A stretch of DNA of 64,000 bases from Ignavibacteria bacterium (GTDB taxonomy: Bacteria; Bacteroidota; Ignavibacteria; Kapaibacteriales; Kapaibacteriaceae), in contig JBKCLO010000055.1 in assembly GCA_046300675.1 (NCBI GenBank), forward strand, positions 3,345 through 67,344. The letters are read 5' to 3'. This document shows positions 2,669 to 49,773 of this stretch, piece by piece. A model generated the notes under the pieces. It saw only the letters and a list, made by a program, of their open reading frames with translations, searched no databases and was not told where the DNA came from. Every line of letters starts with the position of its first letter. The first letter of the stretch is position 1. The translations under genes were made by a program, and so were the position numbers.

Positions 2669-2676
2669 TAGATTTG
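2669..2676 (+). promoter_or_regulatory. -7 box TAGATTTG, 4 nt before the pheS ATG (leaderless-type)
   Basis: TAGATTTG-CACC-ATG. Confidence 0.65.
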
Positions 2677-2680
2677 CACC

Positions 2681-3712
2681 ATGAGTTTACGCGACAACAT
2701 TCTTGAGCTTCGCAGCACGATAGAGTCGGAGTTGCCAGCCCTTACCTCGTTGGAAGAAGCAGAGGCGTTCCGGTTGCGACACCTTGTCAAGAAGGGAACA
2801 CTGCAGTCATTGGTAGACCAGTTGCGTGAAGTTCCCAAAGAAGAGAAGCCCGAGGTCGGTAGGCTTCTCAATGAGTTGAGATCTCTTGCTCAGAATGCCC
2901 ATGCTGCTGCCCTTGAGGAGCACACGCGTTCAGGGTCTGTTGACAAGATCGATGTTACTCTTCCAGCAAGGGGCGCTTCCGTTGGGTCTATCCATCCTAT
3001 TACCCAAACGATGGACAGACTGGTAGAGATTTTTGCATCGATGGGTTTTGACGTGGCCGAAGGTCCAGACGCCGAGGACGATGCGCACAATTTTGAGCTC
3101 TTAAACTTCGCATCTGATCATCCTGCCCGGGACATGCAGGATACGTTTTTCGTAGATCACAATTCACGGGCTGATGTTCTGCTTCGTACCCACACATCCA
3201 GTGTTCAGGTGCGTGTTATGGAATCCATGAAGCCACCTATCAGGTGCATCATGCCCGGCAGGGTATACCGTAACGAGGCGGTAAGTGCGCGCTCCCTGGC
3301 CGAGTTTCATCAGATCGAGGGTCTCTACATCGACAAAGGTGTGAGCATGGCCGATCTCAAGGGAACGATCATGGCCTTTGCACGGAAATTTTACGATGAG
3401 CATGCGGAGTTCCGATTCCGCACATCGTTCTTCCCGTTTACAGAGCCAAGCTGCGAGATCGATATGTCGTGCTTCCTTTGCAAGGGCGATGGCTGTCGTA
3501 TCTGCAAGCATTCAGGCTGGCTTGAGATCTGTGGCGCAGGCATGGTCCACCCGAACGTACTCAGGGCCAACGGCATAAATCCCGAAGAATACAGCGGTTT
3601 TGCATTTGGCTTCGGAGTAGAGCGCGTAGTGCTGATGCTTACCGGTATCGACGACATTCGGCACCTGTACGACAACGACTTCCGAGTACTCTCACAGTTC
3701 CCGCAACAATGA
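2681..3712 (+). CDS. pheS: Phenylalanine--tRNA ligase alpha subunit
   Basis: HPARDMQDTF, LLRTHTSSVQVR, FRTSFFPFTEPS, GFAFGFGVERV motifs. Confidence 0.98.
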   Translation: MSLRDNILELRSTIESELPALTSLEEAEAFRLRHLVKKGTLQSLVDQLREVPKEEKPEVGRLLNELRSLAQNAHAAALEEHTRSGSVDKIDVTLPARGASVGSIHPITQTMDRLVEIFASMGFDVAEGPDAEDDAHNFELLNFASDHPARDMQDTFFVDHNSRADVLLRTHTSSVQVRVMESMKPPIRCIMPGRVYRNEAVSARSLAEFHQIEGLYIDKGVSMADLKGTIMAFARKFYDEHAEFRFRTSFFPFTEPSCEIDMSCFLCKGDGCRICKHSGWLEICGAGMVHPNVLRANGINPEEYSGFAFGFGVERVVLMLTGIDDIRHLYDNDFRVLSQFPQQ

Positions 3713-4389
3713 TTCTGCAGGCTCACGGCATTGTAAAGTCGTATACGTCTGTTGATGCCGTATCGACGCAAGTGCTCCGCGGAGCCACGCTGCAGATTTA
3801 CCAGGGCGAGTTCGTTGCCATCGTTGGACCAAGTGGCGCTGGTAAGAGTACGTTGCTTCATGTTCTTGCGTCATTGGACCGATGTGATAGCGGTATGCTG
3901 CAGGCAACGATACAGGATACGACTTTTGACTACGCACGTATGAGCGAAACAGCATTTGCTCAGTTTCGATTGAATCATGTAGGTTTTGTGTATCAATTCC
4001 ATCATCTGCTTCCCGAGTTCACAGCGTCGGAAAACATCATGATGCCAGCACTGATCAAGGGTGTTTCTCAGCGCGAAGCGCGCAGACGCGCAGATCAGTT
4101 GCTTGAGCGGATTGGGCTTGCTGAACGAGCAGCGCACATGCCGGCTGAACTCTCAGGGGGCGAGCAACAACGAGTAGCAATTGCCAGAGCTGTGATGAAT
4201 TCACCAGCATTGCTCTTTGCCGATGAACCAACCGGTAATCTTGATTCGACGAACGCCCAGCTTGTGCGGGAGCTACTGCGAGAATTGCAGCAAGAACAGC
4301 ATCTTACTTGTATCATCGCAACGCATAGTCAAGAGATAGCACAAAGTGCATCAAGGATCATTCGTATGGTAGACGGATTATGCGTCTAG
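3709..4389 (+). CDS. lolD: LolD/FtsE-family ABC transporter ATP-binding protein
   Basis: Walker [50 protein letters not shown] overlap with the pheS stop. Confidence 0.8.
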
Positions 4390-47274: not shown

Positions 47275-47300
47275 ACCACGAAGATATCGGTTCAACGGCA

Positions 47301-48293
47301 ATGAACATCAAGGCGCAGATTCTTGATGCATTTGATCGCTGCCAACATATAGTCATAACCACCCACATCAACCCGGACGGCGACGCCTTAGGGTCGTCGC
47401 TAGGCCTGTGCCACTGGCTGCGTGGGCGCGGTAAGCAGGTTAGCGTGATCATTCCAAACGCGTTTCCTGCAAACATGGGCTGGTTGCCGGGCATCGAAGA
47501 CATACTCTGCTGGAATCCCAGTCTTTCCAGCGTGATCAATGCGTCCGATCTCGTTGTTGTGCTTGATCTTAATTCGGTATCGCGTCTGGGCGAACTTGGT
47601 CAGGCGATCGTCAATAGTGGGGCATTGCTGGTGAACATCGACCACCATACACATCCCGAGAGCTTTGCTAACGTAGCATGGATTGATACGGAGTCCTCGT
47701 CGACGTGTGCGATGATAGCAGGCTTGGCAATCGAATCCACAGGTCCAGCATCGATCACAGATTCGATGGCAACCTGCCTGTACACGGGTGTTATGACAGA
47801 TTCTGGATCGTTTAGATTTCCACGTACCACTGCAACGCTGTTTCGAACCGTTGCCATCCTGGTTGAGCAGGGGGCTGATCCAGTTCGTATCTACGATCTT
47901 GTCATGAACCAAGGCTCTGTCGGCCGAATGCAGCTGCTGGGGCGCGCGCTTAGTCAGATGGAGATCGGCTCCGGCGGACAGTTATGCGTTATGAGCGTAT
48001 CGCAGCAGGACATCGCAGAATACGGCTGCTCGCTAGCAGACATTGAAGGCTTTGTTCAGCAGACTCTTACGCTCCAAGGCGTTGTCATGGGTATCCTGAT
48101 CGTAGAGCTGCCAAGCGAAATCAAGATTTCCTACCGATCAAAGGGTTTGGCATACGTTCGTGACCTTGCCGCTGTGCATGGGGGCGGCGGACATGTATAT
48201 GCAGCCGGCGCCCGAGTTGTAGGGCGTTCACTGCAAGAAATCCGCCGCGACGTTACTCAACAGGCCCTTGACTACCTGCAGGCACTCACTTAA
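47301..48293 (+). CDS. nrnA: DHH-family oligoribonuclease/pAp phosphatase NrnA
   Basis: THINPDGDALGS, VLD, IDHH, YTGVMTDSGSF, SYRS, GGGH. Confidence 0.93.
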   Translation: MNIKAQILDAFDRCQHIVITTHINPDGDALGSSLGLCHWLRGRGKQVSVIIPNAFPANMGWLPGIEDILCWNPSLSSVINASDLVVVLDLNSVSRLGELGQAIVNSGALLVNIDHHTHPESFANVAWIDTESSSTCAMIAGLAIESTGPASITDSMATCLYTGVMTDSGSFRFPRTTATLFRTVAILVEQGADPVRIYDLVMNQGSVGRMQLLGRALSQMEIGSGGQLCVMSVSQQDIAEYGCSLADIEGFVQQTLTLQGVVMGILIVELPSEIKISYRSKGLAYVRDLAAVHGGGGHVYAAGARVVGRSLQEIRRDVTQQALDYLQALT

Positions 48294-49629
48294 GCGAGTC
48301 GCCGATGATTCCAATACCGAGGTCTACTTCGGCGTGTGAAAGATTTAGTGGCGGTCTGAACCGCACCGACCTATCGCCGCTTCCAACAAGCAGCAAGCCG
48401 TGCTCGTAGGCAGTTTTGACAAATGCATTTCGTGCTTCGTTTGACGGAAGATCAAATGCGCAGAAAAGACCCATGCCGCGGATGTTACTAACAATGTCTT
48501 GGCCAACACGAGACTGCATAGATGTAAGCTGATCCCGAAGGTATTGTCCAACCGTTGCTGCATTCTGCACGAGGTTCTCTTCGGCAATGATCTCAATGTA
48601 CTTCGTAGATCTAACCATATCTACTAGAGAGCCTCCCCATGTGGAGTTGATGCGGCTTGATGTGTGAAACACATTGTCGCTGATCTCATCCACACGCGGA
48701 CCAACCAAGATTCCGCATACCTGCATCTTTTTACCGAATGACATGATATCCGGCTCTACGCCGAGACCTTGGTGTGCCCACCAGTTACCCGTCATGCCAA
48801 CACCAGTCTGAACCTCATCAAAGATGAGCAGCGCCTCGTTTTCGAGGCATAGCTCACGAAGCGACTGCAAAAACTCTGGGCGGAAATGATTGTCGCCCCC
48901 TTCACCCTGGATCGGCTCAATGATGATCGCTGCAATGTCATCTGGATTGTCTGCAAACGCCTGTTTAATGCGTGCTATTGATTCGTGTTCACGTTTCTGG
49001 ACATCCTGCAGAACGTCCTCCGTGAAGGGAAACCGCAGATAGGGGGCTGGTACACGAGGCCAGTCCCAGCGTGGCCATAACGCTACTTTCGTAGGATCGG
49101 TGTTCGTAAGCGACATGCAATACCCAGAGCGTCCGTGAAAGGCACGCTCGAAGTGGATGATCTGATGCCCCTTTTCTGTTGATATGCCCTTGGCAAAATT
49201 TCGACGAACCTTCCAGTCCATGGCCGTCTTGATGGCATTTTCAACTGCCAACGTGCCGCCATCGATAAAGAAGGCATATCGGAAGTGAGCAGGAACAGCC
49301 AGAGCAAAGAGTGTCTTTACAAACGTTGCCATCTCTGAGGTATAGATATCAGAGTTCGATGGCTTGTTCAGAGCAGCATGCCCAAGGTACTCGATAAACG
49401 CAGGGTCGGTCATCTTGGGATGGTTCATCCCGATGGGCATAGAGGCTATGCAGGTGAAATAGTCGAGATATTCCTTTCCAGTGCGAGCCTCAACAAACCA
49501 GGATCCATGAGAGCGATCGAGATCAATCACATGGTCAAATCCGTCAACCAACATATGCTCCCGCAGCGAGGACATTACCTCGTTTGGGCTTACATAAAAA
49601 CGAGGCGTATAGCGTGTGGTGTTGCTCAT
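48286..49629 (-). CDS. lat: L-lysine 6-transaminase
   Basis: NKPSNSDIY, GGTLAVENAIKTAMDWK, AFHGRSGY, EPIQGEGGD, DEVQTG, FGKK, RINSTWGG. Confidence 0.92.
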   Translation of the reverse strand: MSNTTRYTPRFYVSPNEVMSSLREHMLVDGFDHVIDLDRSHGSWFVEARTGKEYLDYFTCIASMPIGMNHPKMTDPAFIEYLGHAALNKPSNSDIYTSEMATFVKTLFALAVPAHFRYAFFIDGGTLAVENAIKTAMDWKVRRNFAKGISTEKGHQIIHFERAFHGRSGYCMSLTNTDPTKVALWPRWDWPRVPAPYLRFPFTEDVLQDVQKREHESIARIKQAFADNPDDIAAIIIEPIQGEGGDNHFRPEFLQSLRELCLENEALLIFDEVQTGVGMTGNWWAHQGLGVEPDIMSFGKKMQVCGILVGPRVDEISDNVFHTSSRINSTWGGSLVDMVRSTKYIEIIAEENLVQNAATVGQYLRDQLTSMQSRVGQDIVSNIRGMGLFCAFDLPSNEARNAFVKTAYEHGLLLVGSGDRSVRFRPPLNLSHAEVDLGIGIIGDSLK

Positions 49630-49773
49630 AGCGCAAAAATACTGCTAACTCCTTGACAAGAAATACATGAAACTTCGACTTCACTCGTTTTTGCTTGTGG
49701 GGTTCTTCGTATATTGGCCCTATTGAAAAGAAACTACTTTCAGCACTTGTAACTCACTGGGATAGGAGTAACA

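What the first reader, a model, noticed from the sequence alone, without database searches (positions are those of the whole stretch)
2669..49641. Recurrent TAnnTTTG-N4/5-ATG architecture suggests widespread leaderless mRNAs
Seen: the -7 box lies 4-5 nt before the start codon of pheS (TAGATTTG-CACC), coaD (TAAGTTTG-CACC), the MBL hydrolase (TAAGTTTG-CCAC), lat (TATTTTTG-CGCT) and nuoE (TATTTTTG-AAGTC). One-mismatch versions precede grpE (GATATTTG-CATC), mtaB (CATATTTG-CACC) and the PASTA gene (TATCTTCG-TGGT). None has an SD, whereas rpmI, rplT, dnaJ, ppiD, gyrA and the GldL-like gene have clear SDs. Known: Bacteroidota transcription starts a few nt after TAnnTTTG. Inference: the TSS coincides with the A of AUG, so this lineage runs a dual SD/leaderless initiation system, unlike the A-rich SD-free leaders of Bacteroidia.
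Basis: partly seen in the sequence, partly recalled or inferred. Interest (0 to 1): 0.65.

Follow-up and report, generated by a model that had tools for sequence, protein, structure and literature searches.

The report
Promoter boxes abutting start codons
In this uncultured freshwater Kapaibacterium the usual Bacteroidota promoter box lies 3-8 bases before the start codon of about 130-200 housekeeping genes, so their messages probably start at the AUG with no leader; this mode of gene expression is known elsewhere but I found no report of it for this lineage.

Summary
All eight cited sites are present, and a sixth exact case (truA) was missed. Across the 2.53-Mb genome, 660 TAnnTTTG boxes give a sharp peak of ATG codons that open long ORFs: 24/38/24/16/9/7 at spacings 3-8. 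Spacings 9-21 hold about one each, and a second, leadered hump begins at 22 nt.

These ATGs are true N-termini by Pfam profile coverage, almost never have an SD (3% against 29%), and are 91% ATG. The box-ATG layout is conserved at pheS, coaD and lat across the genus, while the spacer and 'nn' bases vary.

In Flavobacterium the box spans -12 to -5 with 4-5 nt to the TSS, so the A of ATG should be +1. The genome's only primary-type sigma is a short 287-aa protein with no region 1.1, as in Bacteroidota. The 16S anti-SD is canonical.

Leaderless-type starts make up about 6-9% of genes and about 40% of recognisable promoters. SD serves only about 20-25% of genes, and roughly half have neither signal, so "dual system" is too simple. 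The available metatranscriptome contigs were too shallow to map TSSs.

Verdict: probable leaderless mRNAs, a new member of a known kind, restricted to this family.

The parts
2669..2683 (+). pheS: -7 box TAGATTTG, 4-nt spacer CACC, ATG. The box starts 15 nt after the rplT terminator hairpin.
   Evidence: The box-N4-ATG layout is conserved in 21 relatives with at least 76% PheS identity. Identified as PheS by Pfam.
6511..6525 (-). coaD: TAAGTTTG-CACC-ATG. The TAA of the box is the stop codon of the upstream co-directional gene.
   Evidence: The box lies next to the ATG in all 10 genus members and in none of the other families of the order. The Pfam CTP_transf_like profile begins at residue 6.
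45381..45395 (+). Metallo-beta-lactamase-fold gene: TAAGTTTG-CCAC-ATG. It lies in a 98-bp divergent region opposite the leadered ppiD-like promoter.
49627..49641 (-). Class-III aminotransferase (lat-like): TATTTTTG-CGCT-ATG.
   Evidence: A box (TAnnTTTG, TAnnTTCG or TAnnTTGC) lies 4-5 nt before the ATG in the nine genus members whose N-terminus was recovered.
41380..41395 (-). nuoE-like 2Fe-2S protein: TATTTTTG-AAGTC-ATG.
   Evidence: RNA contigs stop 31 nt or more inside the gene and none crosses the ATG.
27957..27971 (+). mtaB-like radical-SAM gene: one-mismatch box CATATTTG-CACC-ATG, 9 nt from a divergent gene.
   Evidence: The Pfam UPF0004 profile positions 1-98 match residues 2-97, so this ATG is the N-terminus.
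10091..10105 (-). grpE: one-mismatch box GATATTTG-CATC-ATG. An AAAGGA overlaps its 5' edge and lies 10 nt from the ATG, so this site is ambiguous between an internal promoter and an SD.
47254..47286 (.). Divergent pair whose start codons overlap by 10 nt: the DHH gene (+, TAATTTGC-GCC-ATG at 47254-47267) and the PASTA gene (-, TATCTTCG-TGGT-ATG at 47286-47272). Each box lies within the other gene's first codons.
   Evidence: The variant boxes TAnnTTCG and TAnnTTGC are enriched at spacing 3-6 genome-wide.
45292..45344 (-). Leadered contrast: TATATTTG, then 28 nt, then the SD GGAGG, then ATG of the ppiD-like gene. Same box, but a leader of about 40 nt.
   Evidence: RNA contigs run 8-18 nt upstream of this ATG but not beyond the predicted TSS.
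1296..1303 (+). Leadered contrast: TATATTTG box upstream of infC-rpmI-rplT. rpmI and rplT each carry an AAGGAG SD.

Best explanation
The TAnnTTTG boxes are -7 promoter elements read by the genome's short, Bacteroidota-type primary sigma factor. At about 130 genes with an exact box, and about 180-200 once the variants TAnnTTCG and TAnnTTGC are counted, the box ends 3-8 nt (mode 4) before the true ATG start codon.

In Flavobacterium the box occupies -12 to -5 and transcription starts 4-5 nt after its G. RNA polymerase should therefore start at, or 1-4 nt before, the A of the AUG. That would give leaderless or near-leaderless mRNAs, which ribosomes must engage through the 5'-terminal AUG and initiator tRNA without any SD pairing.

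The same box also drives ordinary leadered mRNAs (box 22-60 nt upstream), some with an SD and many without. The cell therefore uses three initiation modes side by side.

Shown here: the geometry, its genome-wide statistics, the authenticity of the start codons, the absence of SD, the ATG preference, conservation within the genus, the sigma type and the anti-SD sequence. Inferred: the exact transcription start and the way the ribosome is recruited.
For: 1. Genome-wide spacing of box to an ATG that opens an ORF of at least 100 codons: 24/38/24/16/9/7 at 3-8 nt, about 1 per position at 9-21 nt, and a second hump from 22 nt. Of 331 genes with an exact box within 200 nt, 130 have it at 3-8 nt, 7 at 9-21 nt and 129 at 22-60 nt.
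2. Published geometry: T-12 A-11 ... G-5 with 4-5 nt to the TSS in F. johnsoniae (PMC6847099), and -12 to -5 in F. psychrophilum (PMC9723704).
3. The ATGs are real N-termini. Pfam profiles begin at residues 2-6 for MtaB, CoaD and GrpE. LepA, PrfC, Der, YebC, GuaA, Pth, CoaE and Cmk have canonical N-termini.
4. SD-like 4-mers occur upstream of 3% of these genes against 29% of the others; 91% use ATG against 79%. Only ATG, not GTG or TTG, is enriched at 3-8 nt.
5. Divergent pairs leave no room for leaders. One 24-nt gap is filled by two opposed boxes that share their TA.
6. Box plus ATG is conserved at pheS in 21 relatives, at coaD in all 10 genus members and at lat in nine, while the nn and spacer bases vary.
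7. The same peak appears in another genus member (15 at 3-8 nt against 5 at 9-21 nt) and in the sister genus (19 against 10).
8. The only sigma factor with a region 3 is a 287-aa RpoD-like protein without region 1.1.
9. One weakly supportive RNA observation: for the 1014-aa gene at C94:24626, RNA contigs start 15 and 51 nt after the ATG and nothing covers the 600 nt upstream.
Against: No transcription start was mapped. The RNA runs that hold this organism are available only as assembled contigs at about 2-30x, and these end 20-40 nt short of predicted 5' ends even at clearly leadered genes.

One RNA contig (run X27, 2023-2703) runs from rplT through the terminator and 22 nt into pheS. Some pheS RNA may therefore be leadered read-through, or DNA carry-over.

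No -33/-35 element is detectable upstream of the boxes.

27 of the 130 genes have a co-directional gene ending within 30 nt upstream. They may also be translated from polycistronic RNA.

At spacing 3 (27 genes), a start 4-5 nt after the box would fall inside the ATG, so polymerase would have to start one base earlier than is usual in Flavobacterium.
Confidence: 0.78

Rival explanations
1. The box next to the ATG is a translation signal, not a promoter. It would be a U-rich, non-SD ribosome- or S1-binding site inside longer transcripts that start further upstream.
For: About half of the genes have no SD, so some non-SD mechanism must exist. 27 of the 130 genes follow a co-directional gene within 30 nt. 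One RNA contig crosses from rplT into pheS.
Against: The identical 8-mer sits 22-60 nt upstream of SD-bearing genes, where it cannot be a ribosome-binding site. It matches the experimentally defined Bacteroidota -7 element, including the T-12 and A-11 typical of -10 elements. The zone at 9-21 nt is empty, which is hard to explain for a ribosome-binding site. In divergent gaps of 24-42 nt there is no upstream DNA for another promoter outside the neighbouring coding sequence. The motif is under-represented at operon-internal starts.
Confidence: 0.08
2. The adjacency comes from mis-called starts. The true start codons lie downstream, and the ATG at the TSS is incidental, giving normal 5' UTRs of 20-40 nt.
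For: My gene caller is crude, and it rewards a box next to a candidate start.
Against: The histogram uses no gene calls and still shows 20- to 30-fold enrichment of ATG at 3-6 nt. Pfam profile coverage starts at residues 2-6. The conserved N-terminal motifs of CoaD, Der, PrfC, LepA and YebC lie within the first 5-20 residues. N-termini align with orthologues that have different upstream DNA.
Confidence: 0.03
3. The boxes are real promoters, but most of these genes have short leaders of 1-8 nt, or mixed start sites, or are mainly expressed from upstream promoters. True leaderless mRNAs would then be only a minor share of their transcripts.
For: Spacings range from 3 to 8 nt. Read-through is seen at pheS. 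Six boxes reuse the stop codon of the upstream gene, which suggests internal promoters inside operons.
Against: The mode at 4 nt equals the published box-to-TSS distance. 90 of the 130 are heads of transcription units, being either divergent or at least 60 nt from the co-directional gene upstream. Leaders of 5 nt or less are usually classed with leaderless mRNAs (my own knowledge of the mycobacterial literature, not checked here).
Confidence: 0.11

Closest known systems
Bacterial genomes rich in leaderless transcripts (GeneMarkS-2 'group C': Actinobacteria such as Mycobacterium tuberculosis, and Deinococcus-Thermus such as D. deserti; PMC6028130, PMC3160421)
   Same: A -10-type promoter element sits at a fixed short distance from the start codon of many first-in-operon genes. 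There is no SD, AUG is strongly preferred, and SD-led genes coexist in the same genome. 25-50% of operons are predicted to be leaderless, which is similar to the roughly 40% of recognisable promoters found here.
   Different: The promoter element here is the Bacteroidota-type TAnnTTTG, read by a short sigma lacking region 1.1, rather than a TANNNT Pribnow box. The lineage belongs to the Bacteroidota/Chlorobi/Ignavibacteria group. There, earlier surveys found leaderless genes in 1 of 37 genomes (PMC3160421) and assigned 90% of species to the non-SD leadered 'group B' (PMC6028130). Also, about half of the genes here use neither SD nor leaderless starts.
Sigma-A(Bfr) promoters and 5' UTRs of cultured Bacteroidia (B. 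thetaiotaomicron PMC7366714; F. johnsoniae PMC6847099; F. psychrophilum PMC9723704)
   Same: The same -7 consensus, a weak or absent -33 element (as in F. johnsoniae), and the same expected 4-5 nt distance to the TSS. A short primary sigma factor.
   Different: In those species only 3.7% (B. thetaiotaomicron), 5.5% (F. psychrophilum) and about 13% (F. johnsoniae) of mRNAs have leaders of 10 nt or less, and SD is essentially unused (about 2% of genes, PMC10783764). Here about 40% of recognisable promoters abut the ATG and about 20-25% of genes have an SD. That SD share lies between the published 13% for Chlorobia and 32% for Ignavibacteria.
Phage lambda cI mRNA from pRM, the model leaderless mRNA (PMC10491246)
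   Same: The transcript begins at the A of the AUG, and translation depends on the 5'-terminal AUG rather than an SD.
   Different: That is a single regulatory gene in an SD-dominated host. Here it is a genome-wide class of housekeeping genes: aminoacyl-tRNA synthetases, lepA, prfC, uvrA, mutS, coaD and others.

Membership tests
Bacteroidota sigma-A(Bfr)-type promoter | -7 element with consensus TAnnTTTG | tested here: met
   Exact boxes lie upstream of 331 predicted genes. The flanks carry little information apart from a G immediately 5' of the box in 62% of sites.
Bacteroidota sigma-A(Bfr)-type promoter | -33 element TTTG/TTG about 19-21 nt upstream of the box | tested here: not met
   No positional TTG, TTTG or TTGA enrichment 8-44 nt upstream, and no column above 0.07 bits. 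The element is also barely visible in F. johnsoniae (PMC6847099).
Bacteroidota sigma-A(Bfr)-type promoter | Primary sigma factor is short and lacks region 1.1 | tested here: met
   Only one Sigma70_r3-containing gene is found, at C186:13270-14133. It encodes 287 aa that align to regions 1.2-4.2 of RpoD/SigA and score below every full-length RpoD cut-off. The specific substitutions in regions 2.4 and 4.2 were not compared.
Bacteroidota sigma-A(Bfr)-type promoter | Transcription starts 4-5 nt downstream of the G of the box | tested here: inconclusive
   Metatranscriptome contigs at about 2-30x end 20-40 nt short of the predicted 5' ends.
Leaderless mRNA genes (bacterial type) | Promoter -10-type element at a fixed short distance from the start codon, seen as a genome-wide peak | tested here: met
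   Peak at 4 nt (counts 24/38/24/16/9/7 for spacings 3-8), with about 1 per position at 9-21 nt.
Leaderless mRNA genes (bacterial type) | Mapped 5' end at the start codon, or no more than 5 nt before it | tested here: inconclusive
   No raw reads or 5'-end libraries were available, only shallow contigs.
Leaderless mRNA genes (bacterial type) | No Shine-Dalgarno sequence, and preference for AUG | tested here: met
   SD-like 4-mers in 3% against 29%; ATG in 91% against 79%; GTG and TTG are not enriched at 3-8 nt.
Leaderless mRNA genes (bacterial type) | The abutting codon is the true translation start | tested here: met
   Pfam profile starts at residues 2-6. N-termini are canonical and align with orthologues. 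There is no proteomic proof.
SD-led initiation | 16S rRNA 3' end carries CCUCC, and SD motifs are enriched 5-10 nt before starts | tested here: met
   The 16S ends ...GGAUCACCUCCUUUCU. GGAG or GAGG is present at 222 of 1175 unambiguous starts against about 50 in control windows, with a spacer peak at 5-8 nt. This covers only about 20-25% of genes.

The most novel reading that the evidence does not exclude
A family-level clade of freshwater Kapaibacteria may have moved about 40% of its recognisable housekeeping promoters onto the start codon. It would then run three initiation modes side by side: leaderless, SD-led, and leadered without an SD. Some promoters are compressed into the stop codon of the upstream gene, and some divergent leaderless promoters share their TA dinucleotide. 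That would make the clade a natural intermediate for studying how the Bacteroidota group lost its dependence on the SD. It would also show that a sigma-A(Bfr)-type polymerase working from a -7 box alone can specify +1 precisely enough to preserve the AUG.
Probability: 0.5. Interest if true: 0.55.

Novelty: new member of a known kind. Interest (0 to 1): 0.45.

Why it matters
Leaderless translation is regarded as rare in the Bacteroidota/Chlorobi group, and published start-site maps exist only for three cultured Bacteroidia. A lineage that keeps a canonical anti-SD, uses SD for only a minority of genes, and puts about 130-200 housekeeping genes directly behind the promoter box widens the known range of initiation strategies in this group.

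It also has practical consequences. Gene finders tuned to SD or A-rich ribosome-binding sites will mis-place these starts. Operon predictions will miss promoters that lie inside the stop codon of the upstream gene.

It is not a new mechanism, however. The same pattern has been noted many times in other uncultured Bacteroidota during this scan (unchecked notes).

Tried and rejected
1. RNA evidence. Four lake metatranscriptomes (X25, X26, X27, X29) hold this organism, but only as assembled contigs. I laid them on five regions. Depth was 2-30x and contig ends fell 20-40 nt short of the predicted TSS even at clearly leadered genes. Repeated contig ends, such as 2036 inside rpmI, look like assembly-graph breaks. 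I did not use them as TSS evidence.

2. Pattern counts against the tool's reversed-pattern control, over 121 class-level and 251 phylum-level genomes. Ratios above 2 appeared in several AT-rich families. ORF-filtered spacing histograms on fetched DNA then showed no peak in G007 (GC 33%), G091 (GC 37%) or G192. The ratio is unreliable in AT-rich genomes, and I dropped it as a measure of phylogenetic spread.

3. A search for a -33/-35 element found nothing.

4. Counting one-mismatch boxes over all ATGs was too noisy because of codon periodicity. I replaced it with counts at unambiguous starts and a motif-enrichment ranking.

5. One call was largely wasted asking for contigs C2-C20 of single-contig genome G071, and another asking for contigs beyond C1 of G051.

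6. Literature searches for leaderless mRNAs in Kapabacteria, Ignavibacteria, Chlorobaculum, Rhodothermus or Salinibacter returned nothing relevant.

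
Full report
**What the organism is.** The window is contig C55:3345-67344 of a 2.53-Mb, 193-contig assembly with 52% GC. The closest public relatives of its PheS are freshwater MAGs labelled Candidatus Kapaibacterium, Ignavibacteria or Bacteroidota. The 16S rRNA ends ...GGAUCACCUCCUUUCU, a canonical anti-SD.

**Checking the observation.** The exact sites are:
- pheS, 2669-2683 (+)
- coaD, 6525-6511 (-)
- an MBL-fold gene, 45381-45395 (+)
- a class-III aminotransferase (lat-like), 49641-49627 (-)
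- nuoE, 41395-41380 (-)

The one-mismatch versions are at grpE, mtaB and the PASTA gene. Pfam confirms all the gene identities.

Two items were missed. One is a sixth exact case at truA (31749-31735, TAATTTTG-TCTG-ATG). The other is a variant box, TAATTTGC-GCC-ATG, for the DHH gene at 47254-47267. One correction is needed: grpE also has an AAAGGA 10 nt upstream and follows hrcA by 27 nt, so it is ambiguous.

The window holds 24 boxes, which is no more than chance (25 expected). Seven of them have ATG at spacing 4-5 where about one is expected; the computed Poisson tail for at least six such sites is 6e-4.

I took all 660 TAnnTTTG boxes in the genome and counted ATGs that open an ORF of at least 100 codons at each distance from the box. 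No gene calls were used. The counts are 24, 38, 24, 16, 9 and 7 at spacings 3-8. They fall to about one per position from 9 to 21 nt, and a broad second hump starts at 22 nt. GTG and TTG show no such peak.

I then wrote a simple codon-usage gene caller, which gave 2240 genes. Of 331 genes with an exact box within 200 nt upstream, 130 have it at 3-8 nt, 7 at 9-21 nt, 80 at 22-40 nt and 49 at 41-60 nt. Chance would give about 0.3 per nucleotide. So about 40-47% of recognisable promoters abut the start codon.

The variants TAnnTTCG and TAnnTTGC are also enriched at 3-6 nt, by about 44 and 21 sites. Counts at unambiguous starts agree. The total is therefore about 180-200 genes, which is about 8% of all genes and roughly 13-17% of transcription-unit heads.

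**Are these ATGs the real starts?** Yes, as far as sequence can tell.
- The set is dominated by housekeeping genes with textbook N-termini. Examples are pheS, leuS, valS, alaS, serS, lepA, prfC, der, guaA, yebC, pth, coaD, coaE, cmk, uvrA, mutS, truA and folD.
- Pfam profiles begin at residue 2 (MtaB), residue 6 (CoaD) and residue 4 (GrpE).
- Orthologues from other families, with quite different upstream DNA, align from the same first residues.

**Other properties expected of leaderless genes.** SD-like 4-mers lie upstream of 3% of these genes against 29% of the rest, and 91% start with ATG against 79%. Divergent pairs are telling. Four pairs have exact boxes on both sides, with gaps of 24-42 nt. 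In the 24-nt gap at C94:33686/33711 the sequence CAAAATTACATTTG holds two opposed boxes that share their TA, each 5 nt from its ATG. No leader can fit unless the promoter lies inside the neighbouring gene.

**Why the box is a promoter and where transcription should start.** The consensus is the -7 element of Bacteroidota sigma-A(Bfr) promoters. In F. johnsoniae it occupies T-12 ... G-5, with 4-5 nt to the TSS (PMC6847099). In F. psychrophilum it lies at -12 to -5 (PMC9723704). With the modal 4-nt spacer, +1 is the A of the ATG.

The same box sits 22-60 nt before SD-bearing genes. An example in the window is TATATTTG-N28-GGAGG-N9-ATG for the ppiD-like gene. The genome has a single sigma factor with a region 3. 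It is 287 aa, aligns with regions 1.2-4.2 of RpoD/SigA and has no region 1.1, as described for sigma-ABfr.

No -33 element is detectable. The same is largely true of F. johnsoniae. A G immediately 5' of the box is present in 62% of sites.

**Conservation and phylogenetic range.**
- pheS: terminator, then box, N4 and ATG, kept in 21 relatives with at least 76% PheS identity. The more distant Kapaibacteria-labelled MAGs have leaders instead.
- coaD and lat: a box lies next to the ATG in all 10 genus members for coaD and in nine for lat. The nn positions and the spacer vary in sequence and length (N4-N6), and the box itself switches between TAnnTTTG, TAnnTTCG and TAnnTTGC. The four or five other families of the same order lack it.
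- ORF-filtered histograms on sampled DNA: the peak is present in another genus member (G081: 15 at 3-8 nt, 5 at 9-21 nt) and in the sister genus (G071: 19 against 10). It is absent in G007, G091 and G192. There is a weak peak in one unrelated family (G196: 18 against 17, but 14 of those at 3-5 nt).

The trait is therefore at genus-to-family level and patchy elsewhere.

**How much SD is used.** GGAG or GAGG occurs 5-10 nt before 222 of 1175 unambiguous starts, against about 50 in control windows. GGA-containing motifs raise the net figure to about 20%. That lies between the published 13% for Chlorobia and 32% for Ignavibacteria, and well above the roughly 2% for Bacteroidia (PMC10783764).

About half of the genes, including 254 of 501 unambiguous transcription-unit heads, have neither an SD nor an abutting box. 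Their upstream regions are merely G-poor, with C favoured at -1 and -2, and are not A-rich. 'Dual system' therefore understates the picture. There are three classes, and the largest is leadered without an SD.

**RNA evidence.** Four lake metatranscriptomes hold this organism, but only as assembled contigs. Depth over these genes is 2-30x. At clearly leadered genes (infC, the ppiD-like gene and the gene at 49774) contigs stop 20-40 nt short of the predicted TSS, so they cannot resolve a TSS.

What they do show:
- No contig crosses the ATG of nuoE, the MBL gene or lat.
- At the 1014-aa gene at C94:24626, contigs begin 15 and 51 nt after the ATG, with nothing in the 600 nt upstream.
- One contig (run X27, 2023-2703) runs from rplT through the terminator and 22 nt into pheS. 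Read-through, or DNA carry-over, therefore exists there.

I treat the RNA evidence as inconclusive.

**Comparison with what is known.** Leaderless genes are well documented in Actinobacteria, Deinococcus-Thermus and archaea (PMC3160421, PMC6028130). For Bacteroidetes/Chlorobi the surveys report them in 1 of 37 genomes, and 90% of species fall in the non-SD leadered group B. Start-site maps give 3.7%, 5.5% and about 13% short leaders in the three cultured Bacteroidia studied. I found no paper on leaderless transcription in Kapabacteria, Ignavibacteria or Chlorobia.

Notes from this scan report the same box-abuts-ATG pattern in over 400 other genomes, mostly uncultured Bacteroidota. These are unchecked leads. 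They do suggest that the phenomenon is widespread in uncultured members of the group and not peculiar to this genome.

**Verdict.** The leaderless reading is well supported by geometry, statistics, start-codon authenticity and conservation, but no TSS data confirm it (confidence 0.78). The mechanism is a known one in a lineage where I found no report of it, so this is a new member of a known kind, of moderate interest.

Noticed in passing
window 22637-22651 (+): TAACTTTG-AGTC-ATG fits the leaderless pattern, but this ATG is out of frame with the downstream 4HBT-type thioesterase. The thioesterase's conserved N-terminal motif (...YRVRYSDTDKMGVVYHGNY) lies in the frame whose only upstream start is TTG 22642, inside the box itself. 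This could be a 1-nt assembly error, a frameshift, or translation only from the upstream operon RNA.
   Followed up: partly
window 47254-47286: The divergent DHH (+) and PASTA (-) genes have start codons that overlap by 10 nt (ATGTCCACAT / ATGTGGACAT). Each gene's promoter box therefore lies within the other's first codons.
   Followed up: partly
window 6523-6525; also C169:25581, C193:124015, C18:13109, C6:12177, C9:128378: The TAA or TAG of the promoter box doubles as the stop codon of the upstream co-directional gene. There are six such cases among the 130 exact-box genes.
   Followed up: yes
G000 C94:33686-33711: A 24-nt divergent intergenic region consists entirely of two opposed -7 boxes that share their TA (CAAAATTACATTTG), each 5 nt from its ATG.
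   Followed up: yes
window 2023-2703: An RNA contig in run X27 continues from rplT through the intrinsic terminator (GGCGACAGC...GCTGTCGCC) and 22 nt into pheS. In runs X25 and X26 the contigs stop at 2613 and 2601. The terminator may be leaky, or the library may contain DNA.
   Followed up: no
loci L189, L195, L196, L208, L209 (genus members): At orthologous coaD and lat starts some relatives carry TAATTTGC, that is TAnnTTGY with the TA-to-TTG distance one base shorter. This resembles the SM5 motif reported for F. psychrophilum (PMC9723704) and may point to a second sigma specificity or a tolerated variant.
   Followed up: partly
genome-wide, position -13 relative to the predicted TSS: A G immediately 5' of the box is present in 62% of leaderless-type promoters, with C-rich positions just upstream of it. 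No -33/-35 signal was found.
   Followed up: partly
G196 (family f47 of the same phylum), loci L176-L185: An unrelated family (GC 44%) shows a weak peak of box-to-ATG spacing at 3-5 nt (14 sites in 200 kb). The architecture may have arisen more than once.
   Followed up: no
window 2036 (inside rpmI): RNA contigs of three runs all begin at exactly 2036, 42 nt inside rpmI. This is probably an assembly-graph break and not an RNA end.
   Followed up: no
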